Origin: Sulfuritalea sp.
Lineage (GTDB): Bacteria; Pseudomonadota; Gammaproteobacteria; Burkholderiales; Rhodocyclaceae
Direction: 5' to 3'
Length of the DNA: 64,000 nt
Assembly (NCBI GenBank): GCA_044359585.1
Contig: JBIKLV010000010.1
Coordinates: 3,319-67,318 of the forward strand
Shown here: piece after piece, positions 3,675-10,177 of the stretch
How the letters are laid out: each line of letters opens with the position of its first letter
Numbering within the stretch: position 1 is the first letter of the stretch
Position numbers and translations under genes: made by a program
Notes under the pieces: model-generated
Told to the model about the DNA's origin: nothing
The model's database searches: none
Seen by the model: only the letters and a program-made list of their open reading frames with translations

Positions 3675-4394
3675 ATGTCCATTGCGAAGAATCGCCGCAT
3701 CCATGCGAATGCCCTTTCAATCGTGAAGCCCGGCCGACTCGCGCTGGCGATCGGCGTCATGTTCGCCGCTGCGTCGTCCGTGGCCCTCGCGGACCCGGTT
3801 ACCGCTTTTTCGGACAACTTCGAAAACGGACTCGGTGCATGGACAGACCGTACTCCGGGCAATCCCCAATCGATCATTGCGCTCGATCCACTGAACTCGT
3901 CCAACCACGTTCTCGCCTTTGTCCAACTGGGATCGGCCGGCAGCATCTTCACCACCAACAGCATCGTGTCAAGCGGCCTGTTTACCGTTTCCTTCGATTT
4001 TCTGGGACGACCGATCGCGCCGGGCGTGCCCACGGGCGGGTTCTTCGGCATCAGCAACAGCGTTTTTCAAGGAGGCTTTGCCGGGCCCCATCAATGGGTT
4101 GCCGGCGACCCGTCCTACCCGGTTCCCATCCACCTGGTTTCCGACAACACCTGGCACAGCTACAGCCTGACTTTCAGTTCGCAAATCGGCCAGACAGTCC
4201 ATCTGATGTTTGAAGACTTTGGTGGTGCGGACGGTGCGGCCAATGCGTACTTCGACAACATCCGCTTCAACGATTCATCGGTTGCACCCGCCCCGCTTAC
4301 CCCGGTGCCGGAACCCGAAACCTACGCGATGATGCTGGCTGGCCTGGGACTGCTCGGGCTGACGGCAAGGCGACGGAAACAGAAGGCCGCCTGA
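3675..4394 (+). CDS. PEP-CTERM sorting-domain exported protein
   Basis: Signal peptide (..SSVALA-DP) and C-terminal VPEPETYAMMLAGLGLLGLTARRRKQ; likely start ATG 3675. Confidence 0.92.
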   Translation: MSIAKNRRIHANALSIVKPGRLALAIGVMFAAASSVALADPVTAFSDNFENGLGAWTDRTPGNPQSIIALDPLNSSNHVLAFVQLGSAGSIFTTNSIVSSGLFTVSFDFLGRPIAPGVPTGGFFGISNSVFQGGFAGPHQWVAGDPSYPVPIHLVSDNTWHSYSLTFSSQIGQTVHLMFEDFGGADGAANAYFDNIRFNDSSVAPAPLTPVPEPETYAMMLAGLGLLGLTARRRKQKAA

Positions 4395-4415
4395 GCGAGC
4401 GCAGCATTTGTCAAA

Positions 4416-4444
4416 ACAACCCCGCTTCGGCGGGGTTGTCGTTT
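4416..4444 (+). terminator. Intrinsic terminator between convergent genes
   Basis: ACAACCCCGC-TTCG-GCGGGGTTGT hairpin. Confidence 0.75.
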
Positions 4445-4570
4445 GTACATCGGCAACGACCCGGCGCCGTGACGGATTGCGCTGCATGGCTGGTACCCAA
4501 AGGATGGGCGGCTGCGATGCGCGCAGATGGTTTTGCCGCCGCCTGGTTTCGGCAGTGAACCCCCTCGCCG

Positions 4571-5989
<1,419 letters not shown>

Positions 5990-5992
5990 GGT

Positions 5993-7345
5993 TCAGGCCC
6001 TGGGCAAAACTACGCTGACGACCGTGCCGCCCGCCTCGCCGGCGCCCAGCGCCAGCGTGCCGCCGTAGCGCTCGACCACCCGGCGTGCCAGCGGCAGCCC
6101 GAGGCCGAGCCCCTTGGGCTTGGTCGTGAAAAACGGTCGGAACACCTGCTCGCGGATGTCCGGCGCGATGCCGCCGCCGTGGTCGGCGATGTCGACCCGC
6201 AGGCGGTTGCCGTCATGATCGGCCAGCCCGACCCGGCAACGGCCACCGGCCTGCATCGCCTCGGCGGCATTGCTCAACAGGCTGTCGAACACCTGCCGCA
6301 GCAGCGCCATGTCGGCGGCGACGATGGGCTTGGCTGCCGCGCATTCGCAGACCAGCGTCAGGCCCTGCCGCTCGAAGGCCGGCAGGTGGTCGGCGACGCA
6401 GCGCACCAGCAACTCGCCGAGGTCGCCAGGGGCGCCGGATTGCATCGCCTTGCCGGAAAAGTTCAGCAGCTCGACGATGCGCGCCGATATCCGGTCGACT
6501 TCGCGGATGATGTCCTGGGCCTGCTCCGAACAATCCTCGGTCGGCGCTTCGAGCGCCAGTTCCGCGGCGGAGCGGATCGACGACAGCGGGTTGCGGATGT
6601 TGTGCGCCACCGACGAGGTCAGCTCGCCGACCACCGCAAGCGTCTCGGCCTCGACCAGGCGCGCATGCTGCAGCTGTATCGTGCTGTCGGCGCGGCGGAT
6701 CATCCAGAACAGCGTGAGGTAGAGCAGCAGCGCGCTGCCCAGCGCCGTCAGGCCGACCTGCACCCGCCCTTCGTTGATTGCTTCCGATAGCGCCAGCGGC
6801 GCCTTGTAGAGCTCGACGACGCCAACTACCTGGCCGTCGGGGCGCTTCACCGGAATGTAGCTTTCGACGAAGAATTCGATCGACGGATTGAGGCCCTCGT
6901 GCTCGCGCTTTTCCTGGCTCGACGCCGTGATGCGTCCGGCATGGACGACGAGCTCGCCCTTCATGGCATCGTCGAGTTCGTCGTTGTCGGCGAAGCGGCG
7001 CCCGATCAACTGCGGATCGCTGGACCAGAGGACGGACCGGTCCTGGCCGAAGACGTTGGCACGCAACACGTCGCGCATGGTGGACAGATGTTCCACGGTG
7101 TTGCGAAAGCGCGCCGCGAGTTCCGGGTCGCTCGGCCGCGTAAGGAACTCGAGCGAGCCGTCGGCGACCATGATGTTCTGCACGAATTCGCGGCTGATCG
7201 AGGCTTCGCGCTGGAACAGGTGACTGTTGAGGAAGTTGGAGATCAGCCAGACGTTGGCCAGCGCGATCGCGGCAATGACGATCGGGCTGAGCCAGGCGAA
7301 CCAGCGCAGCAGGTTGAATGGTTTGCCGTGTTCCCCGTTTGCCAT
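5993..7345 (-). CDS. Membrane sensor histidine kinase with periplasmic sensor domain
   Basis: Two TM segments flanking ~160 aa, H-box VAHNIRNPL, N box, FFTTKPKGLGLGL. Confidence 0.93.
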   Translation of the reverse strand: MANGEHGKPFNLLRWFAWLSPIVIAAIALANVWLISNFLNSHLFQREASISREFVQNIMVADGSLEFLTRPSDPELAARFRNTVEHLSTMRDVLRANVFGQDRSVLWSSDPQLIGRRFADNDELDDAMKGELVVHAGRITASSQEKREHEGLNPSIEFFVESYIPVKRPDGQVVGVVELYKAPLALSEAINEGRVQVGLTALGSALLLYLTLFWMIRRADSTIQLQHARLVEAETLAVVGELTSSVAHNIRNPLSSIRSAAELALEAPTEDCSEQAQDIIREVDRISARIVELLNFSGKAMQSGAPGDLGELLVRCVADHLPAFERQGLTLVCECAAAKPIVAADMALLRQVFDSLLSNAAEAMQAGGRCRVGLADHDGNRLRVDIADHGGGIAPDIREQVFRPFFTTKPKGLGLGLPLARRVVERYGGTLALGAGEAGGTVVSVVLPRA

Positions 7346-7385
7346 TGCCTCTACCTTGAATTCCCCGTCCCGGACGCGCCGCGTT

Positions 7386-8360
7386 TTACCAGCTTATCGC
7401 ATACGCCAGCGAGACCTGGCGATAGCGATTCTCGTAGAGCGCCAGGTTCGCGCGATTGGTGGCGGCGATCGCCTCGAACTTGAGGGTTTGTCCCGGCGCG
7501 ACTTCATAGGCGCCGCCGAATTCGACCGTGGTCGCGCGGTCGCGGCGCGCCGGCAGGCCGGGCAGCGGCGTATCGTCGAACACGGCGGATTGCCATGACA
7601 TGCCCGCGCTCCAGCCGATGCCCCATTGCCTGCGGTCCAGCGACACCCGGAAGAACGCGTTGCGATTCGCCAGTTCGGCGAAGCCGCGATCGTTGCGTTC
7701 GCGGCCGACGGCGATCTCGAGGTCGATCGCATCGATGCCCGGCACGGGCTCGACCTGGCGTCGCTTCACCATGAACAGGGTGGCGGTCGAATCGAGGTCG
7801 ACCAGGTCATCCCAATGGCGATTGGTGCCGCGATCGAGGAACAGCAGCCAGTGATTGCCGGCAAGGTCGCCGGTCGCCCAGTCGGCATGCCAGCCGCGTA
7901 CCGAGCGGAAGCGTTCGCCGGCCACCTCGATCCGCTGCAGGTTGGGCCCAATGCCGAAGTAGCCCCCGGCGAAGGGGGTGCGCAGCATCGGATTGACCGA
8001 TGCCATGGCGAAATCGAGTGCCTGCACGCCCGGCGCCCGCTTGTAACGAATGTCGCCACCCAGAGCCAGACGCGATTCGGCGCCGAGCGCCCAGTCGGTG
8101 AATCCGCTGATGCCTCCCTGGTAATGCGTTCCGGCCAGGCGATCGAAGCCGTCGAGGCGGATCAGCACGCCTTCGGGAGAAATGCGGACCAGCGGGGACG
8201 TCTGCGACTCATGGCCGACGCCGAACTCGGCGGCGAAGTTCGTCGTGGTCGGCGGCCCGGATACCGGACCGGCGACTTCGGCCAGCGCCGGCAAGGCCAG
8301 GGCAAAGCCGAGCGCCGCCAGGCCGCGCGCTGCGCGAGCGGCCAGCGTGGCGACGATCAG
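7386..8360 (-). CDS. Outer-membrane beta-barrel protein, Slam/DUF560-like C-terminus
   Basis: Signal peptide ending LPALA-EV, amphipathic beta strands, terminal NRANLALYENRYRQVSLAYAISW; start probably the in-frame CTG at 8360 overlapping the upstream TGA (alternative ATG 8429). Confidence 0.65.
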   Translation of the reverse strand: MIVATLAARAARGLAALGFALALPALAEVAGPVSGPPTTTNFAAEFGVGHESQTSPLVRISPEGVLIRLDGFDRLAGTHYQGGISGFTDWALGAESRLALGGDIRYKRAPGVQALDFAMASVNPMLRTPFAGGYFGIGPNLQRIEVAGERFRSVRGWHADWATGDLAGNHWLLFLDRGTNRHWDDLVDLDSTATLFMVKRRQVEPVPGIDAIDLEIAVGRERNDRGFAELANRNAFFRVSLDRRQWGIGWSAGMSWQSAVFDDTPLPGLPARRDRATTVEFGGAYEVAPGQTLKFEAIAATNRANLALYENRYRQVSLAYAISW

Positions 8361-8545
8361 ACGCCCTTGCGGCAGACCTGCTTGTAGGTATTGGTGTTGT
8401 TCACGGAGGAAACCAGCACCCAGGTGCATTTGACGCCGTGGCCCAGGCTGGTGCTGTTGCCAGCCGAAGCCGGAGTCACCATTGGCAAGGTCAGAAGCGA
8501 TGCTGCGATCAGGTAGGAAACGATTTGCGTGGCGACGTTGTTCAT
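8357..8545 (-). CDS. 62-aa secreted peptide: signal peptide plus 34-aa mature region with two Cys
   Basis: GGAG RBS, Sec signal ending PASA, mature GNSTSLGHGVKCTWVLVSSVNNTNTYKQVCRKGV. Confidence 0.8.
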   Translation of the reverse strand: MNNVATQIVSYLIAASLLTLPMVTPASAGNSTSLGHGVKCTWVLVSSVNNTNTYKQVCRKGV

Positions 8546-8630
8546 GATAGTTCTCCATTGGGGTCAGGGTCTTCGGGCTTGAATCCCGGTCACACCAGAC
8601 TCCATCGGAGCCGGTGTTGCCCAACTGGTA

Positions 8631-8646
8631 TGCAGAAACAGTGCCA
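8631..8646 (-). promoter_or_regulatory. Sigma-54 (-24/-12) promoter
   Basis: TGGCACTGTTTCTGCA with exact GG-N10-GC spacing, ~85 bp upstream of the peptide start. Confidence 0.8.
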
Positions 8647-8662
8647 GCCTGGAACGTGCTCA

Positions 8663-8693
8663 CAAGAAACTGATTTATATATGAAATAAAAAG
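8663..8693 (-). promoter_or_regulatory. IHF binding site with adjacent A/T tract
   Basis: AATCAG-TTTC-TTG (8663-8675, minus) matches WATCAR-N4-TTR, just upstream of the -24 element. Confidence 0.6.
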
Positions 8694-8853
8694 TCGCGCC
8701 ATGCTGGCCGGGAGTCGGGAACTGATTTGCCCCACCACAAATGGGTGATATGACCCAGAACTTGGTGGAGGGCCAGATTGCCGCGCATTGCAAGCGAAGA
8801 GGACGGAATGCCGGCTGTCGCCGTGCTTGGCCGGCCCGATTCAGGACGGATGC

Positions 8854-9462
8854 TCACGTGCCGTGGCCCGATCCGGCAAACGACGCGGATCGCCACTGCC
8901 CGACGAAGGCGGTCGCGGCCGGAAGCCAGTCCAAAAAATCCTCGCGGAAACCCTCCGCATCGACGAGGAACTCGTCTTCCCCGCCGGCCAGCGGATTGGG
9001 CCGCCGTGCGCGCCGCGCCATGCGGGCGAGGACGTCGGCGATGCCGTCGATCCGCGCATAACCGTGGAACCAGTCTTCGGAGGCCATCAGCGTCAGGGCG
9101 TAATGCGAATCCAGCGGCAGGTCGGCGAAGCGCTCGGCGACCTGCCGATAGACGTCGTGGCGGTACTCGGCAAAGGGCCGGGGGTGCAGTTGCGCCCACT
9201 CGCGCGCCAGCAGGTGGTCGTAGAAAATGTCGACAAGCACGCCGGCATAGCGGCGGCGCGCGGGTGAGACGCGGGCGCGGCTGCGGCGAAAGGCCGGATG
9301 GGTTTCGGCATGGCTGTCGATGGCGCGATGCAGGGCGACGCCGCGCGCAAGGTCGGGCGGCAGGCGGCCGGGCAGCGGGCCCTTGATCCAGTCGCCGACG
9401 ACGCCGCCGACCACCAGCGCGGGGTCGTCGCCGGCCAGGAGGGCATGGGCGAGGAAGTTCAT
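8854..9462 (-). CDS. acpH: ACP phosphodiesterase
   Basis: MNFLAH..GDW.KG..LHRAID..D.FYDH motifs. Confidence 0.9.
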   Translation of the reverse strand: MNFLAHALLAGDDPALVVGGVVGDWIKGPLPGRLPPDLARGVALHRAIDSHAETHPAFRRSRARVSPARRRYAGVLVDIFYDHLLAREWAQLHPRPFAEYRHDVYRQVAERFADLPLDSHYALTLMASEDWFHGYARIDGIADVLARMARRARRPNPLAGGEDEFLVDAEGFREDFLDWLPAATAFVGQWRSASFAGSGHGT

Positions 9463-9481
9463 GGGCGGGTATTATCGGGCC

Positions 9482-10177
9482 ATGGACCCACTGCTCACCG
9501 CGATCGAACTGCAATCCGACGAATCCCCGCGTTTTTCCGTGATCTGGATGCATGGCCTCGGCGCCGACGGCTCGGATTTCGTGCCGGTGGTGCCGCACCT
9601 GGGCCTCGACGATGCGCCTTCCATGCGCTTCGTCTTCCCCAATGCGCCGCAGATTCCGGTGACCTGCAACGGCGGCTACGTGATGCCGGCCTGGTACGAC
9701 ATCATCACGCTCGACAGCACCACGCGCACCGTGGACGAAGCCGGCATCGTGCGCAGCCGGGAAGCCATCCGCCGCCTGATCGAGCGCGAGAACCAGCGCG
9801 GCGTGCCCAGCGAGCGCATCTTCGTCGCCGGCTTCTCGCAGGGCGGCGCGATCGCCTACGCCACCGCGCTGACCCATCCGCAGCGCCTGGCCGGGATCAT
9901 CGCCCTGTCGACCTACATCCCGACGCCGGCACTGCTCGAGACCGAAGCCACCGCCGTCAACGCCGTCCTGCCGATCTTCGCCGCCCACGGCACGGAGGAC
10001 GACGTGGTGTCGCCTGAACTGGGCACCCGCGCGCGCGATCTGGTGCTGCGCCTCGGCCATGACGTGGCATGGCACGAGTACCCGATGCCGCATTCGGTGT
10101 GCATCGAAGAGATCATCGACATCGGCGCCTGGCTGCGGGAGCGCATGGACAGCAGCGCGACCGCCAAAACGCCGTAG
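9482..10177 (+). CDS. Carboxylesterase / phospholipase (alpha/beta hydrolase)
   Basis: IWMHGLGA, GFSQGG nucleophile, HG..D, M.HSV; start ATG 9482. Confidence 0.92.
   Translation: MDPLLTAIELQSDESPRFSVIWMHGLGADGSDFVPVVPHLGLDDAPSMRFVFPNAPQIPVTCNGGYVMPAWYDIITLDSTTRTVDEAGIVRSREAIRRLIERENQRGVPSERIFVAGFSQGGAIAYATALTHPQRLAGIIALSTYIPTPALLETEATAVNAVLPIFAAHGTEDDVVSPELGTRARDLVLRLGHDVAWHEYPMPHSVCIEEIIDIGAWLRERMDSSATAKTP

What the first reader, a model, noticed from the sequence alone, without database searches (positions are those of the whole stretch)
7386..8360. TPR-less Slam/type XI-like barrel, apparently coupled to the peptide by a CTGA overlap
The C-terminus NRANLALYENRYRQVSLAYAISW resembles the N.SN..LY.Y.R terminal strands I associate with Slam/DUF560 translocons, which export adjacent cargo. 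At ~324 aa there is no room for the N-terminal TPR domain of typical Slams, and the neighbour is a tiny peptide rather than a TbpB-like barrel cargo. A clean signal peptide begins at an in-frame CTG that overlaps the peptide stop codon, suggesting translational coupling with a CUG start.
Basis: inference. Interest (0 to 1): 0.66.

Follow-up and report, generated by a model that had tools for sequence, protein, structure and literature searches.

The report
TPR-less Slam-like barrel with hairpin peptide
A small outer-membrane barrel distantly related to the Slam/type 11 secretion pores, but lacking their periplasmic arm, is always encoded next to a tiny, highly conserved secreted hairpin peptide under sigma-54 control; this looks like an undescribed minimal peptide-export or signalling module of Betaproteobacteria.

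Summary
On the minus strand, 7386-8360 encodes a 324-codon protein. AlphaFold2 models it as a signal peptide followed directly by a 14-stranded beta-barrel, with no TPR domain. Its first in-frame codon, CTG 8360-8358, overlaps the TGA stop of a 62-aa pre-peptide gene (8357-8545).

No Pfam or NCBIfam model matches the barrel, so it fails the formal DUF560/PF04575 test. A profile of its family still aligns over the whole barrel with TPR+PF04575 proteins (hhalign 98.9%, E 2e-17). All ten of its next-closest relatives tested are TPR-plus-barrel proteins. It is therefore a TPR-less remote relative of the Slam/T11SS barrel, not a Pfam member.

The peptide matures to a 34-aa, disulfide-closed, cationic beta-hairpin. 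It is far better conserved than the barrel (88% against 48% identity). It lies beside the barrel in nearly all loci, including a genome that has no homolog of the kinase's sensor domain.

A sigma-54 promoter and a palindromic upstream site precede the peptide gene across the family. A sensor kinase and an NtrC-type activator usually sit nearby.

Export of the peptide through the barrel is the best reading, but it is inferred. The CUG start is unresolved: this lineage has no canonical start codon at the junction, and an upstream ATG (8429) is a rival. I rate it a new variant of a known kind.

The parts
8743..8756 (-). Palindrome GGGTCATATCACCC, the candidate upstream activator site for the sigma-54 enhancer-binding protein. 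It lies about 100 nt upstream of the -24 element.
   Evidence: The motif GGG-N2-WWWW-N2-CCC occurs in 17 of 30 unique upstream regions of peptide genes, against 0.135 expected from shuffles, and always 75-115 nt upstream of the sigma-54 site. The simple scan had flagged it as terminator-like.
8631..8646 (-). Sigma-54 promoter TGGCAC-TGTTT-CTGCA (GG-N10-GC), 101 nt upstream of the peptide ATG.
   Evidence: It is the only match in the 64-kb window. An equivalent TGGCA[CT]-N5-NTGC site lies 60-101 nt upstream of the peptide start in about 22 of 30 unique loci. No sigma-70-like promoter was found in 4300-8900.
8462..8545 (-). Sec signal peptide of the pre-peptide (codons 1-28, cleavage after ASA). 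It is preceded by a GGAGA ribosome-binding site.
   Evidence: This part varies between homologs while the mature part is conserved. AlphaFold2 models a helix at 2-17.
8357..8461 (-). Mature 34-aa peptide GNSTSLGHGVKCTWVLVSSVNNTNTYKQVCRKGV plus its TGA stop. It is a Cys12-Cys30 closed beta-hairpin with four basic and no acidic residues.
   Evidence: There are 47 homologous clusters, all named 'hypothetical'. The invariant columns are N, S, G, G, KC, WVLV and VCR. AlphaFold2 models strands 38-48 and 51-60 with pLDDT 82-84. Identity to L003 is 88% where the barrel is 48%.
8358..8360 (-). CTG ('site B'), which overlaps the peptide's TGA stop (CTGA).
   Evidence: L017 has TTG and L065 has GTG at the homologous position, and each gives a full signal peptide.
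8355..8357 (-). ATC, an alternative near-cognate start. Its first base is the A of the TGA stop.
   Evidence: TGATC is conserved in window, L013, L073, L070, L072, L001, L039 and L065, and L060 has TGATA. None of these loci has a canonical start at +1 to +4 codons, although L065 has GTG at site B itself (codon 0). Loci with TGAG always have GTG or TTG at 0 to +3. In the Accumulibacter loci L003, L015 and L016, an ATT in the analogous place is the only start that gives a normal signal peptide.
8427..8429 (-). In-frame upstream ATG ('site U'), a rival start for the barrel. It would overlap the peptide gene by 73 nt and give a 50-aa signal peptide.
   Evidence: The peptide's conserved Lys-Cys codons (AAR TGC) create this codon, so it is always ATG or GTG in this frame. 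The frame is open in window, L013, L073, L070 and L072 but closed by a TAA in L001. No Shine-Dalgarno-like sequence precedes it.
8280..8360 (-). Signal peptide of the barrel protein, LIVATLAARAARGLAALGFALALPALA|EV, counted from site B.
   Evidence: helix 2-27, low pLDDT. The distance from the peptide stop to the cleavage site is 27 codons in six lineages of 74-97% identity, with no indels despite heavy substitution.
7386..8279 (-). Mature 14-stranded outer-membrane beta-barrel plus its TAA stop. It is TPR-less and a remote homolog of the DUF560/Slam barrel domain.
   Evidence: AlphaFold2 model. hhalign against TPR+PF04575 proteins. About 60 full-length family clusters of 300-330 aa. dN/dS is 0.14 against the 96%-identical L013.
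5993..7345 (-). Sensor histidine kinase (450 aa). It has two transmembrane segments flanking a periplasmic domain of about 155 aa, followed by HisKA and HATPase_c.
   Evidence: Pfam. NCBIfam gives only sub-threshold AtoS and ZraS matches. Hydropathy. The gene is 40 nt downstream of the barrel stop, with no terminator between them.
4571..5989 (-). NtrC-type sigma-54 enhancer-binding response regulator (472 aa: receiver, AAA+ sigma-54 interaction domain, Fis-type HTH). Its start overlaps the kinase stop.
   Evidence: Pfam. In NCBIfam, AtoC, NtrC and PrsR all score below their cut-offs.

Best explanation
The locus is a sigma-54-controlled operon of four genes: peptide, barrel, kinase and activator.

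Shown:
- The barrel is a 14-stranded outer-membrane protein with no periplasmic domain.
- It belongs to an uncharacterised betaproteobacterial family that is a remote, TPR-less relative of the DUF560/Slam (type 11 secretion) barrel.
- Its gene is almost always adjacent to the gene for a Sec-exported pre-peptide.
- The 34-aa mature part of that peptide is highly conserved and is predicted to form a disulfide-closed beta-hairpin.
- A sigma-54 promoter and a palindromic upstream site precede the peptide gene across the family.

Inferred:
- An unknown envelope or external signal acts on the kinase's periplasmic domain.
- The phosphorylated NtrC-type activator binds the palindrome and fires the sigma-54 promoter.
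- The peptide enters the periplasm through Sec and is oxidised.
- The barrel, acting like a Slam translocon without its TPR arm, passes the peptide to the cell surface or the medium.
- The barrel is made in small amounts. Ribosomes finishing the peptide re-initiate at the stop codon on a weak near-cognate codon (CTG 8360 or ATC 8357), with the peptide's own AAGGG (Lys-Gly codons) as the ribosome-binding site.
For: Fold: AlphaFold2 gives pLDDT 86 and 14 long strands over residues 39-323.

Homology: the family profile hits 430-460-aa proteins that carry TPR plus PF04575. hhalign of 24 against 24 sequences gives 98.9%, E 1.9e-17, across the whole barrel. Ten of ten next-closest ORFs in other Burkholderiales genomes are TPR+barrel proteins. 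One of them (L008) sits next to a 1111-aa FecR-domain (Pfam) protein that by eye carries TbpB-like lobes and looks like cargo.

Literature on the relatives: Slam1 is an autonomous translocon for Sec-delivered cargo encoded next to it (PMC9090332, PMC5449769). NilB still works when its whole N-terminal periplasmic domain is deleted (PMC8406197).

Peptide-barrel linkage: the two genes are adjacent in the window, L001, L003, L013-L017, L035-L039, L045, L047, L048, L052, L056, L057, L060, L062, L065 and L066, in several arrangements. G593 has the pair, but no homolog of the kinase sensor domain was found anywhere in its genome.

Selection on the peptide: the signal peptide is variable and the mature part is conserved. 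Mature identity is 0.88-0.91 where barrel identity is 0.48-0.80.

Regulation: the sigma-54 site and the palindrome are conserved.

Barrel still functional: dN/dS is 0.14.

Coupling: the barrel start lies within -15 to +30 nt of the peptide stop in most lineages. TTGA (L017), GTGA (L065) and GTGTTTAA (L038) are true overlaps.
Against: - No secretion data exist.
- PF04575 does not match any of the 24 family members tested.
- Every known T11SS cargo has an eight-stranded C-terminal barrel (PMC5449769, PMC12282271). This peptide has none, and it shows no similarity to the C-terminus of a relative's cargo.
- Slam moves unfolded cargo, whereas this hairpin would be disulfide-locked.
- The TPR domain of canonical Slams is absent.
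- Three peptide loci show no barrel within the flanks held (L044, L058, L059).
- G074 and L047 have spacers of about 180 nt and 70 nt and ATG starts, so overlap is not obligatory.
- Near-cognate starts are rare in bacteria, and an upstream ATG is available here.
Confidence: 0.5

Rival explanations
1. The peptide is a periplasmic feedback ligand for the kinase, in the manner of ZraP for ZraSR or CpxP for CpxA. It stays in the periplasm and modulates the kinase. The barrel is an accessory that admits an external signal or drains the peptide, and is not a dedicated exporter.
For: The gene for a small Sec-exported product carries a sigma-54 promoter and lies next to a ZraS/AtoS-like kinase and a ZraR/NtrC-like activator. 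The kinase and regulator stay near the pair through several rearrangements: same strand, convergent in L045, and upstream in L062.
Against: Peptide-barrel pairs exist without the kinase. G593 has no homolog of the sensor domain in its whole genome. L039 and L047 have no kinase or regulator within 5-7 kb. The peptide has no ZraP or CpxP family match. This reading does not explain why the peptide's constant partner is a Slam-related barrel.
Confidence: 0.2
2. The barrel is an ordinary diffusion or uptake channel that is merely co-regulated with an unrelated small envelope peptide. The Slam resemblance reflects only general outer-membrane barrel features such as the C-terminal beta-signal.
For: Foldseek returns only generic porins: PorB, OmpG, CymA and FadL. 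No curated family matches. Several relatives also match only the C-terminal ends of BBP2_2 or DUF2860.
Against: The hhalign match spans all 282 barrel columns, not only the last strands. All of the closest outgroups have the Slam architecture. Peptide and barrel are adjacent in nearly all loci over wide divergence, including loci with two peptide genes flanking one barrel.
Confidence: 0.12
3. Translation-start rival: in this lineage the barrel protein starts at ATG 8429-8427, inside the peptide gene. This gives a 73-nt overlap and a 50-aa signal peptide with a long N-region. No non-canonical initiation would be involved.
For: It is the only canonical start that yields a signal peptide in window, L013 and L073. 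L070 has GTG at the same place and also lacks a usable start at the junction. The frame is open from there in five of six lineages of the window's clade. ATG and GTG initiate far better than CTG or ATC (general knowledge).
Against: The peptide's Lys-Cys codons produce this codon automatically, and the frame is expected to be open by chance in a GC-rich genome. It is blocked by a TAA in L001. No Shine-Dalgarno-like sequence precedes it. In lineages with other frame offsets or with spacers (L003, L038, L047, G074), the signal peptide begins at the junction, so the 23-aa extension is not a family feature. Initiation there would have to compete with ribosomes translating the peptide.
Confidence: 0.35
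4. The exported hairpin is a weapon or a building block rather than a signal. It could be a cationic beta-hairpin antimicrobial peptide or bacteriocin, or an amyloid-like fibre subunit secreted through its own pore in the way curli and Fap subunits are.
For: The peptide has a single disulfide closing a 19-residue hairpin, four basic and no acidic residues, and beta-prone VLVSS and Asn/Thr-rich segments. Some loci carry a second, divergent paralog.
Against: No immunity gene is evident. Near-identity of the mature peptide across genera is unlike the rapid diversification typical of bacteriocins. No fibre-accessory genes are nearby.
Confidence: 0.1

Closest known systems
Type 11 secretion system / Slam outer-membrane proteins (DUF560, Pfam PF04575 SlipAM; Neisseria Slam1/2, Xenorhabdus NilB and HrpB, Acinetobacter HsmA)
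   Same: A 14-stranded outer-membrane barrel. Profile-level homology across the whole barrel domain. It is encoded directly beside a Sec-dependent partner gene. It has the same C-terminal N.SN..LY.NRYR-type strand.
   Different: There is no N-terminal TPR domain. Hooda et al. 2017 found no DUF560-only sequences among 832 Slams (PMC5449769). The Pfam model does not detect it. The partner is a 34-aa hairpin without the eight-stranded barrel that defines known cargo. The peptide gene lies upstream of the barrel and overlaps it. The operon is under sigma-54 and two-component control. It occurs in free-living Betaproteobacteria.
TPR + DUF560/BBP2_2-like barrels of Burkholderiales paired with FecR-domain, TbpB-like cargo (for example locus L008/L074 here)
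   Same: These are the nearest detectable relatives of the barrel, and they come from the same bacterial order.
   Different: They are 430-540 aa with a TPR arm. Their partner is a large multi-lobed protein (1111 aa in L074).
ZraP-ZraS-ZraR (and CpxP-CpxA) envelope feedback circuits
   Same: A small Sec-exported product expressed from a sigma-54 promoter lies next to a ZraS-like kinase and a ZraR/NtrC-like activator.
   Different: The peptide is unrelated to ZraP or CpxP and about four times smaller. It has a dedicated outer-membrane barrel. The peptide-barrel pair occurs without the kinase.
Dedicated outer-membrane pores for small secreted subunits (curli CsgG-CsgA, Pseudomonas FapF-FapC)
   Same: A Sec-exported, beta-rich small product has its own outer-membrane channel encoded in the same operon.
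   Different: There is no sequence or fold relation to CsgG or FapF, no accessory genes, and the product is only 34 aa with a disulfide.
Disulfide-stapled beta-hairpin peptides (thanatin, arenicin, tachyplesin class)
   Same: A single-disulfide, cationic two-stranded hairpin of similar ring size.
   Different: Those are eukaryotic host-defence peptides. There is no sequence similarity, and an antimicrobial role here is untested.

Membership tests
DUF560 / SlipAM (Pfam PF04575), the T11SS outer-membrane protein | Match to the PF04575 HMM above the gathering score | tested here: not met
   There is no Pfam hit at E<=10 for the window protein. None of 24 family members hits PF04575 at E<=1. PF04575 is also absent from the six-frame search of the window's own genome.
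DUF560 / SlipAM (Pfam PF04575), the T11SS outer-membrane protein | Homology of the barrel domain to bona fide PF04575 proteins | tested here: met
   The family profile finds TPR+PF04575 proteins, for example P0098 (PF04575 6e-15). hhalign A3 against A4 gives probability 98.9%, E 1.9e-17, 282 aligned columns. Caveat: A4 was seeded from a hit of my own profile.
DUF560 / SlipAM (Pfam PF04575), the T11SS outer-membrane protein | 14-stranded beta-barrel | tested here: met
   The AlphaFold2 model has 14 long strands over residues 39-323, pLDDT 86. The best TM-scores are to the 14-stranded OmpG and CymA. No solved Slam structure was among the listed top matches for direct comparison.
DUF560 / SlipAM (Pfam PF04575), the T11SS outer-membrane protein | N-terminal periplasmic domain of about 140 aa with tetratricopeptide repeats | tested here: not met
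   The barrel starts about 11 residues after the predicted signal-peptide cleavage site. There are no TPR hits. The whole family is 300-330 aa.
T11SS system (translocon plus cargo pair) | Adjacent gene for a Sec- or lipoprotein-signal-bearing cargo | tested here: met
   A pre-peptide with a Sec signal lies immediately upstream. This adjacency is conserved in nearly all loci.
T11SS system (translocon plus cargo pair) | [quoted passage not shown] | tested here: not met
   The mature product is 34 aa and forms a two-stranded hairpin. It has no Pfam hit and no similarity to a relative's cargo C-terminus.
T11SS system (translocon plus cargo pair) | Barrel-dependent surface exposure or secretion of the partner | not testable with these tools
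   This needs a secretion assay.
ZraPSR-type sigma-54 envelope circuit | ZraP/CpxP-family periplasmic protein, with equivalog-level ZraS and ZraR | tested here: not met
   The peptide has no family hit. The kinase and regulator score far below the ZraS and ZraR cut-offs: 142 against 479 bits, and 336 against 760 bits.

The most novel reading that the evidence does not exclude
This is a Gram-negative peptide autoinduction loop built on a minimal Slam-like pore. The disulfide-locked hairpin is released through, and re-enters through, its private 14-stranded barrel. The kinase's periplasmic domain senses it. Through the NtrC-type activator, the palindromic upstream site and the sigma-54 promoter, it then switches on its own operon. 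That would make it a quorum-sensing-like circuit using an unmodified ribosomal peptide, and would also show that a TPR-less DUF560-type barrel can move a folded mini-peptide.
Probability: 0.15. Interest if true: 0.85.

Novelty: new variant of a known kind. Interest (0 to 1): 0.62.

Why it matters
Slam/type 11 secretion is defined by a TPR-plus-DUF560 protein that moves cargo carrying an eight-stranded barrel, and most family members have no known cargo. This locus shows a conserved branch that drops both hallmarks: the TPR arm and the barrel-type cargo. The branch comprises about 60 clusters at 50% identity and is confined to Betaproteobacteria, including the wastewater phosphorus remover Accumulibacter. 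Instead it is tied to a 34-aa hairpin peptide that is better conserved than any other protein of the operon.

If the barrel exports the peptide, it would be the smallest T11SS-like system known. It would make a tractable model for what the barrel alone can do. It would also add a route for peptide release in Gram-negative bacteria that needs neither an ABC transporter nor a type 1 system.

The conserved palindrome, the sigma-54 promoter and the linked kinase and activator offer a ready regulatory circuit to test. The junction also gives a natural series of start codons (GTG, TTG, ATT and CTG/ATC at or beside a stop codon) for studying translational coupling through weak start codons.

Tried and rejected
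- Pfam, NCBIfam and PADLOC scans of the barrel and the peptide gave nothing. The only hit was a meaningless WGxxGxxG match (E 0.026) over the peptide's signal region.
- A PDB sequence search found nothing. Foldseek against the PDB found only generic porins and no Slam entry, so fold search cannot decide family membership.
- PF04575 in the window's own genome and in 14 control genomes matched nothing anywhere, so that search is uninformative.
A2 worked.
- I tested whether the peptide mimics the last hairpin of a relative's cargo barrel. hhalign gave probability 0.1%, so I rejected the idea.
- I rejected a programmed frameshift or readthrough that fuses peptide and barrel. The frame offset between the two genes is 0, 1 or 2 in different lineages, each barrel has its own signal peptide, and G074 and L047 have spacers with ATG starts.
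- I rejected the upstream ORF start that the ORF listing gives (GTG 8738, 450 aa). It runs through the peptide gene and its promoter in another frame.
- Rfam found nothing credible in 7300-8900.
- The 'terminator-like' hairpin at 8742-8757 is better read as the conserved activator palindrome.
- No paper in the library contains the peptide motifs.
Full report
**What is in the sequence**

The feature lies on the minus strand. The peptide ORF at 8357-8545 starts at an ATG seven bases after a GGAGA. It encodes MNNVATQIVSYLIAASLLTLPMVTPASA|GNSTSLGHGVKCTWVLVSSVNNTNTYKQVCRKGV. Its last codons are GTC TGA. One base earlier, the second frame reads CTG ATC GTC GCC... and runs 324 codons to the TAA at 7386-7388, ending ...NRANLALYENRYRQVSLAYAISW.

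Forty bases further on comes a 450-aa HisKA/HATPase_c kinase (5993-7345). It has two hydrophobic segments around a periplasmic domain of about 155 aa. Overlapping its stop is a 472-aa receiver / sigma-54-AAA+ / Fis-HTH activator (4571-5989).

A textbook sigma-54 promoter, TGGCAC-N5-CTGCA, lies at 8631-8646, 101 nt before the peptide ATG. It is the only such match in the 64-kb window. No sigma-70-like promoter and no internal terminator were found.

**The barrel**

AlphaFold2 on a nine-sequence alignment gives pLDDT 86 and pTM 0.76. The model has a low-confidence N-terminal helix (the signal peptide), 14 long antiparallel strands from residue 39 to 323, and one short extra hairpin after strand 1. 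There is no room for a TPR domain and none is modelled.

Foldseek against the PDB returns only generic porins. The best TM-scores are for the 14-stranded OmpG and CymA, and no Slam structure appears among the listed top matches.

Pfam and NCBIfam give no hit even at E<=10. None of 24 family members touches PF04575 at E<=1.

**Remote homology to DUF560**

An exhaustive profile search of 1.8 billion representative proteins finds about 60 full-length relatives of 300-330 aa (E<1e-30). Below them is a weak tail of 430-460-aa proteins in which the match covers the C-terminal 290 residues.

Those longer proteins carry TPR repeats plus PF04575 (P0098 6e-15, P0088 9e-7) and/or the end of BBP2_2. I collected the P0098 family; most members are pre-annotated with PF04575 and one is named 'DUF560 domain-containing protein'. 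I then compared profiles: hhalign gives 98.9% probability, E 1.9e-17, over 282 columns. The alignment runs from the first strand (ELGxGxESQ against EAxxGxDSN) to the last (NRSNxxLYENRYRQ against RNDSNxxINDYDR).

Searching whole genomes of the same order independently gave one 450-540-aa ORF per genome as the next-best hit. All ten that I scanned are TPR+barrel proteins: three match PF04575, four match the BBP2_2 C-terminus, and three have no barrel family. One of them (L008) is followed by a 1111-aa FecR-domain (Pfam) protein that by eye carries repeated TbpB-like lobes, which looks like cargo.

The family is therefore a TPR-less remote relative of the Slam-type barrel. [quoted passage not shown] On the other hand, NilB tolerates deletion of its whole periplasmic domain (PMC8406197). 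Slam1 alone translocates cargo in liposomes (PMC9090332).

**The peptide**

A search found 47 clusters of 59-68-aa homologs, all named 'hypothetical'. In the alignment the signal peptide is free to vary. The mature part is nearly fixed: [GAK]N[ST]xSxGxG[VI]KC, then 17-20 residues, then C[RY]KG[VI].

Against the Accumulibacter locus L003, the mature peptide is 88% identical, while the barrel is 48%, the kinase 62% and the activator 66%. AlphaFold2 predicts a hairpin (strands 38-48 and 51-60, pLDDT 82-84) that the two cysteines would staple. The peptide has four basic and no acidic residues.

There is a second sequence type (KCxTxAVxxxDGTxxYxQVCRKGV). Some loci carry it as an extra, convergent gene just after the barrel.

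**Linkage between the genes**

The cassette peptide-barrel-kinase-activator recurs with different flanking genes.

The peptide-barrel pair is the constant core:
- In G074 it has a 180-nt spacer.
- In L045 the kinase and activator are convergent. In L062 they are upstream. In L038 two other genes intervene.
- In Rubrivivax L039 and in the complete genome G593 the pair stands alone. G593 has no homolog of the kinase sensor domain anywhere.
- Three peptide loci show no barrel in the flanks available.

The family is sparse. It occurs in 2 of 151 genomes of the window's family. Among 400 genomes of the class, only two reached E<=1e-10: the window's own genome and a TPR-type relative. One further true member turned up among 301 genomes of the order.

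**Regulation**

A sigma-54 -24/-12 element lies 60-101 nt upstream of the peptide start in about 22 of 30 unique loci, including loci without an adjacent kinase. A palindrome GGG-N2-WWWW-N2-CCC lies 75-115 nt further upstream in 17 of 30, against 0.135 expected from shuffles. In the window this palindrome is GGGTCATATCACCC at 8743-8756. This is the classic layout of an activator site plus a sigma-54 promoter. Assigning it to the adjacent activator is an inference.

**Where the barrel starts**

I call CTG 8360 'site B', the codon five codons upstream (8375-8373) 'site A', and ATG 8429-8427 'site U'. I compared the junction in about 20 independent sequences.

The codon at site B is the third base of the peptide's last codon followed by TG. 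It is:
- CTG in window, L013, L073, L070, L072, L001, L039, L056, L066, L060, L045 and L035;
- TTG in L017;
- GTG in L065.

In L017 and L065 it is the obvious start and gives a normal signal peptide.

Where the next bases are AG (TGAG..), a GTG or TTG always follows within three codons. Where they are TC (TGATC), no canonical start follows within four codons. A few of these loci have a canonical start elsewhere: GTG at site B itself in L065, TTG at +10 in L001 and L072, TTG at site A in L001, and GTG at site A in L039.

The window, L013, L073 and L070 have no usable canonical start at the junction. The only TTG or GTG falls inside the hydrophobic core. In the Accumulibacter loci L003, L015 and L016 the frame differs. 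There the only start that yields a normal signal peptide is a conserved ATT just after the stop. The called GTG or ATG leaves a 13-residue uncharged signal.

The 27 codons between the stop and the cleavage site have kept their length in six lineages despite heavy substitution. This suggests they are translated.

The barrel gene is under purifying selection in the window's lineage (dN/dS 0.14 against L013), so it must be expressed somehow.

Two readings remain. The first is weak near-cognate initiation at the stop (CTG 8360, ATC 8357, or less likely CTG 8375), helped by the AAGGG of the peptide's Lys-Gly codons and by re-initiating ribosomes. The second is initiation at the in-frame ATG 8429. 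That codon is always ATG or GTG because it is made by the peptide's invariant Lys-Cys codons. It is open here but blocked by a TAA in L001, and it lacks a ribosome-binding site.

The CTGA itself is largely a by-product of the common Val codon GTC before TGA.

**Mechanism**

Shown: the fold, the kinship, the secreted and conserved peptide, the gene linkage and the cis-elements.

Inferred: the barrel acts as a TPR-less Slam-like translocon for the hairpin, and the kinase and activator control the operon. A weak coupled start would keep the barrel scarce relative to its peptide.

Main rivals: the peptide is a periplasmic feedback ligand of the kinase (ZraP-like); the barrel is an unrelated channel; or the exported hairpin acts as an antimicrobial or fibre subunit rather than a signal.

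Points against export: the eight-stranded barrel that marks all known T11SS cargo is absent (PMC5449769, PMC12282271), and Slam moves unfolded chains (PMC9090332).

**Limits**

The DUF560 comparison set was seeded from my own profile's hits, although its Pfam assignment is independent. No Slam structure was available for comparison. Phylogenetic non-independence weakens the junction statistics.

**Verdict**

This is a new variant of a known kind and of moderate to high interest.

Noticed in passing
L038 3298-3495 (-); also L052, L057 and L062: A second, divergent peptide paralog (for example ...GNGVKCRTAPVLQADGTYKYQQVCRKGV) is encoded convergently just downstream of the barrel, so one barrel is flanked by two hairpin-peptide genes. 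In L056, L063, L065 and L066 this 'type B' peptide is the only one and sits upstream of the barrel.
   Followed up: partly
window 8546-8630 (-), 5' leader of the peptide mRNA: The roughly 85-nt leader between the sigma-54 promoter and the ATG contains small hairpins, for example CGGGATTCAAGCCCG. These are conserved with compensating context in L001 (CGGGTTTCAAGCCCG). Rfam finds nothing there.
   Followed up: no
window 8660-8700 (-): An AT-rich stretch (TTTTTATTTCATATATAAATCAGTTTCTTG) lies between the palindrome and the -24 element. It contains a near-match to the IHF consensus WATCAANNNNTTR, as expected for a looped sigma-54 promoter.
   Followed up: no
G000:C38:31605-32180 (L069): The same genome encodes a second kinase whose periplasmic sensor region is 26% identical (E 6e-14) to this one. 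No second barrel or peptide was found in the genome.
   Followed up: no
L016 (Accumulibacter SCELSE-11), 5832-9766: This copy looks decayed. The peptide ORF has lost its start and part of its signal peptide to unrelated upstream sequence, and the activator gene matches in two different frames.
   Followed up: no
L048 4594-6144: The barrel gene is split between two reading frames. This is either a frameshift pseudogene or an assembly error.
   Followed up: no
L039 6366-10344 and L035 (G593): Where the peptide-barrel pair lacks the kinase and activator, it lies among housekeeping genes (rlmH, maf, RNase G in L039). In L039 it still carries the sigma-54 site and the palindrome, so its activator must be encoded elsewhere.
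   Followed up: partly
L038 3867-4301; also ENA contigs: In the NPATGS-loop subgroup, a 144-146-aa protein with a Phage_P22_NinX Pfam hit sits between the barrel and the kinase.
   Followed up: no
window 8427-8429 and homologous sites: The peptide's invariant Lys-Cys codons (AAR TGC) always create an ATG or GTG in the -1 frame. Its Arg-Lys-Gly codons always create an AAGGG or AAAGG Shine-Dalgarno-like string just before the barrel start. This dual use may add to the unusually low synonymous divergence of the mature peptide (pS 0.43 against 0.64 for the barrel, versus L003).
   Followed up: partly
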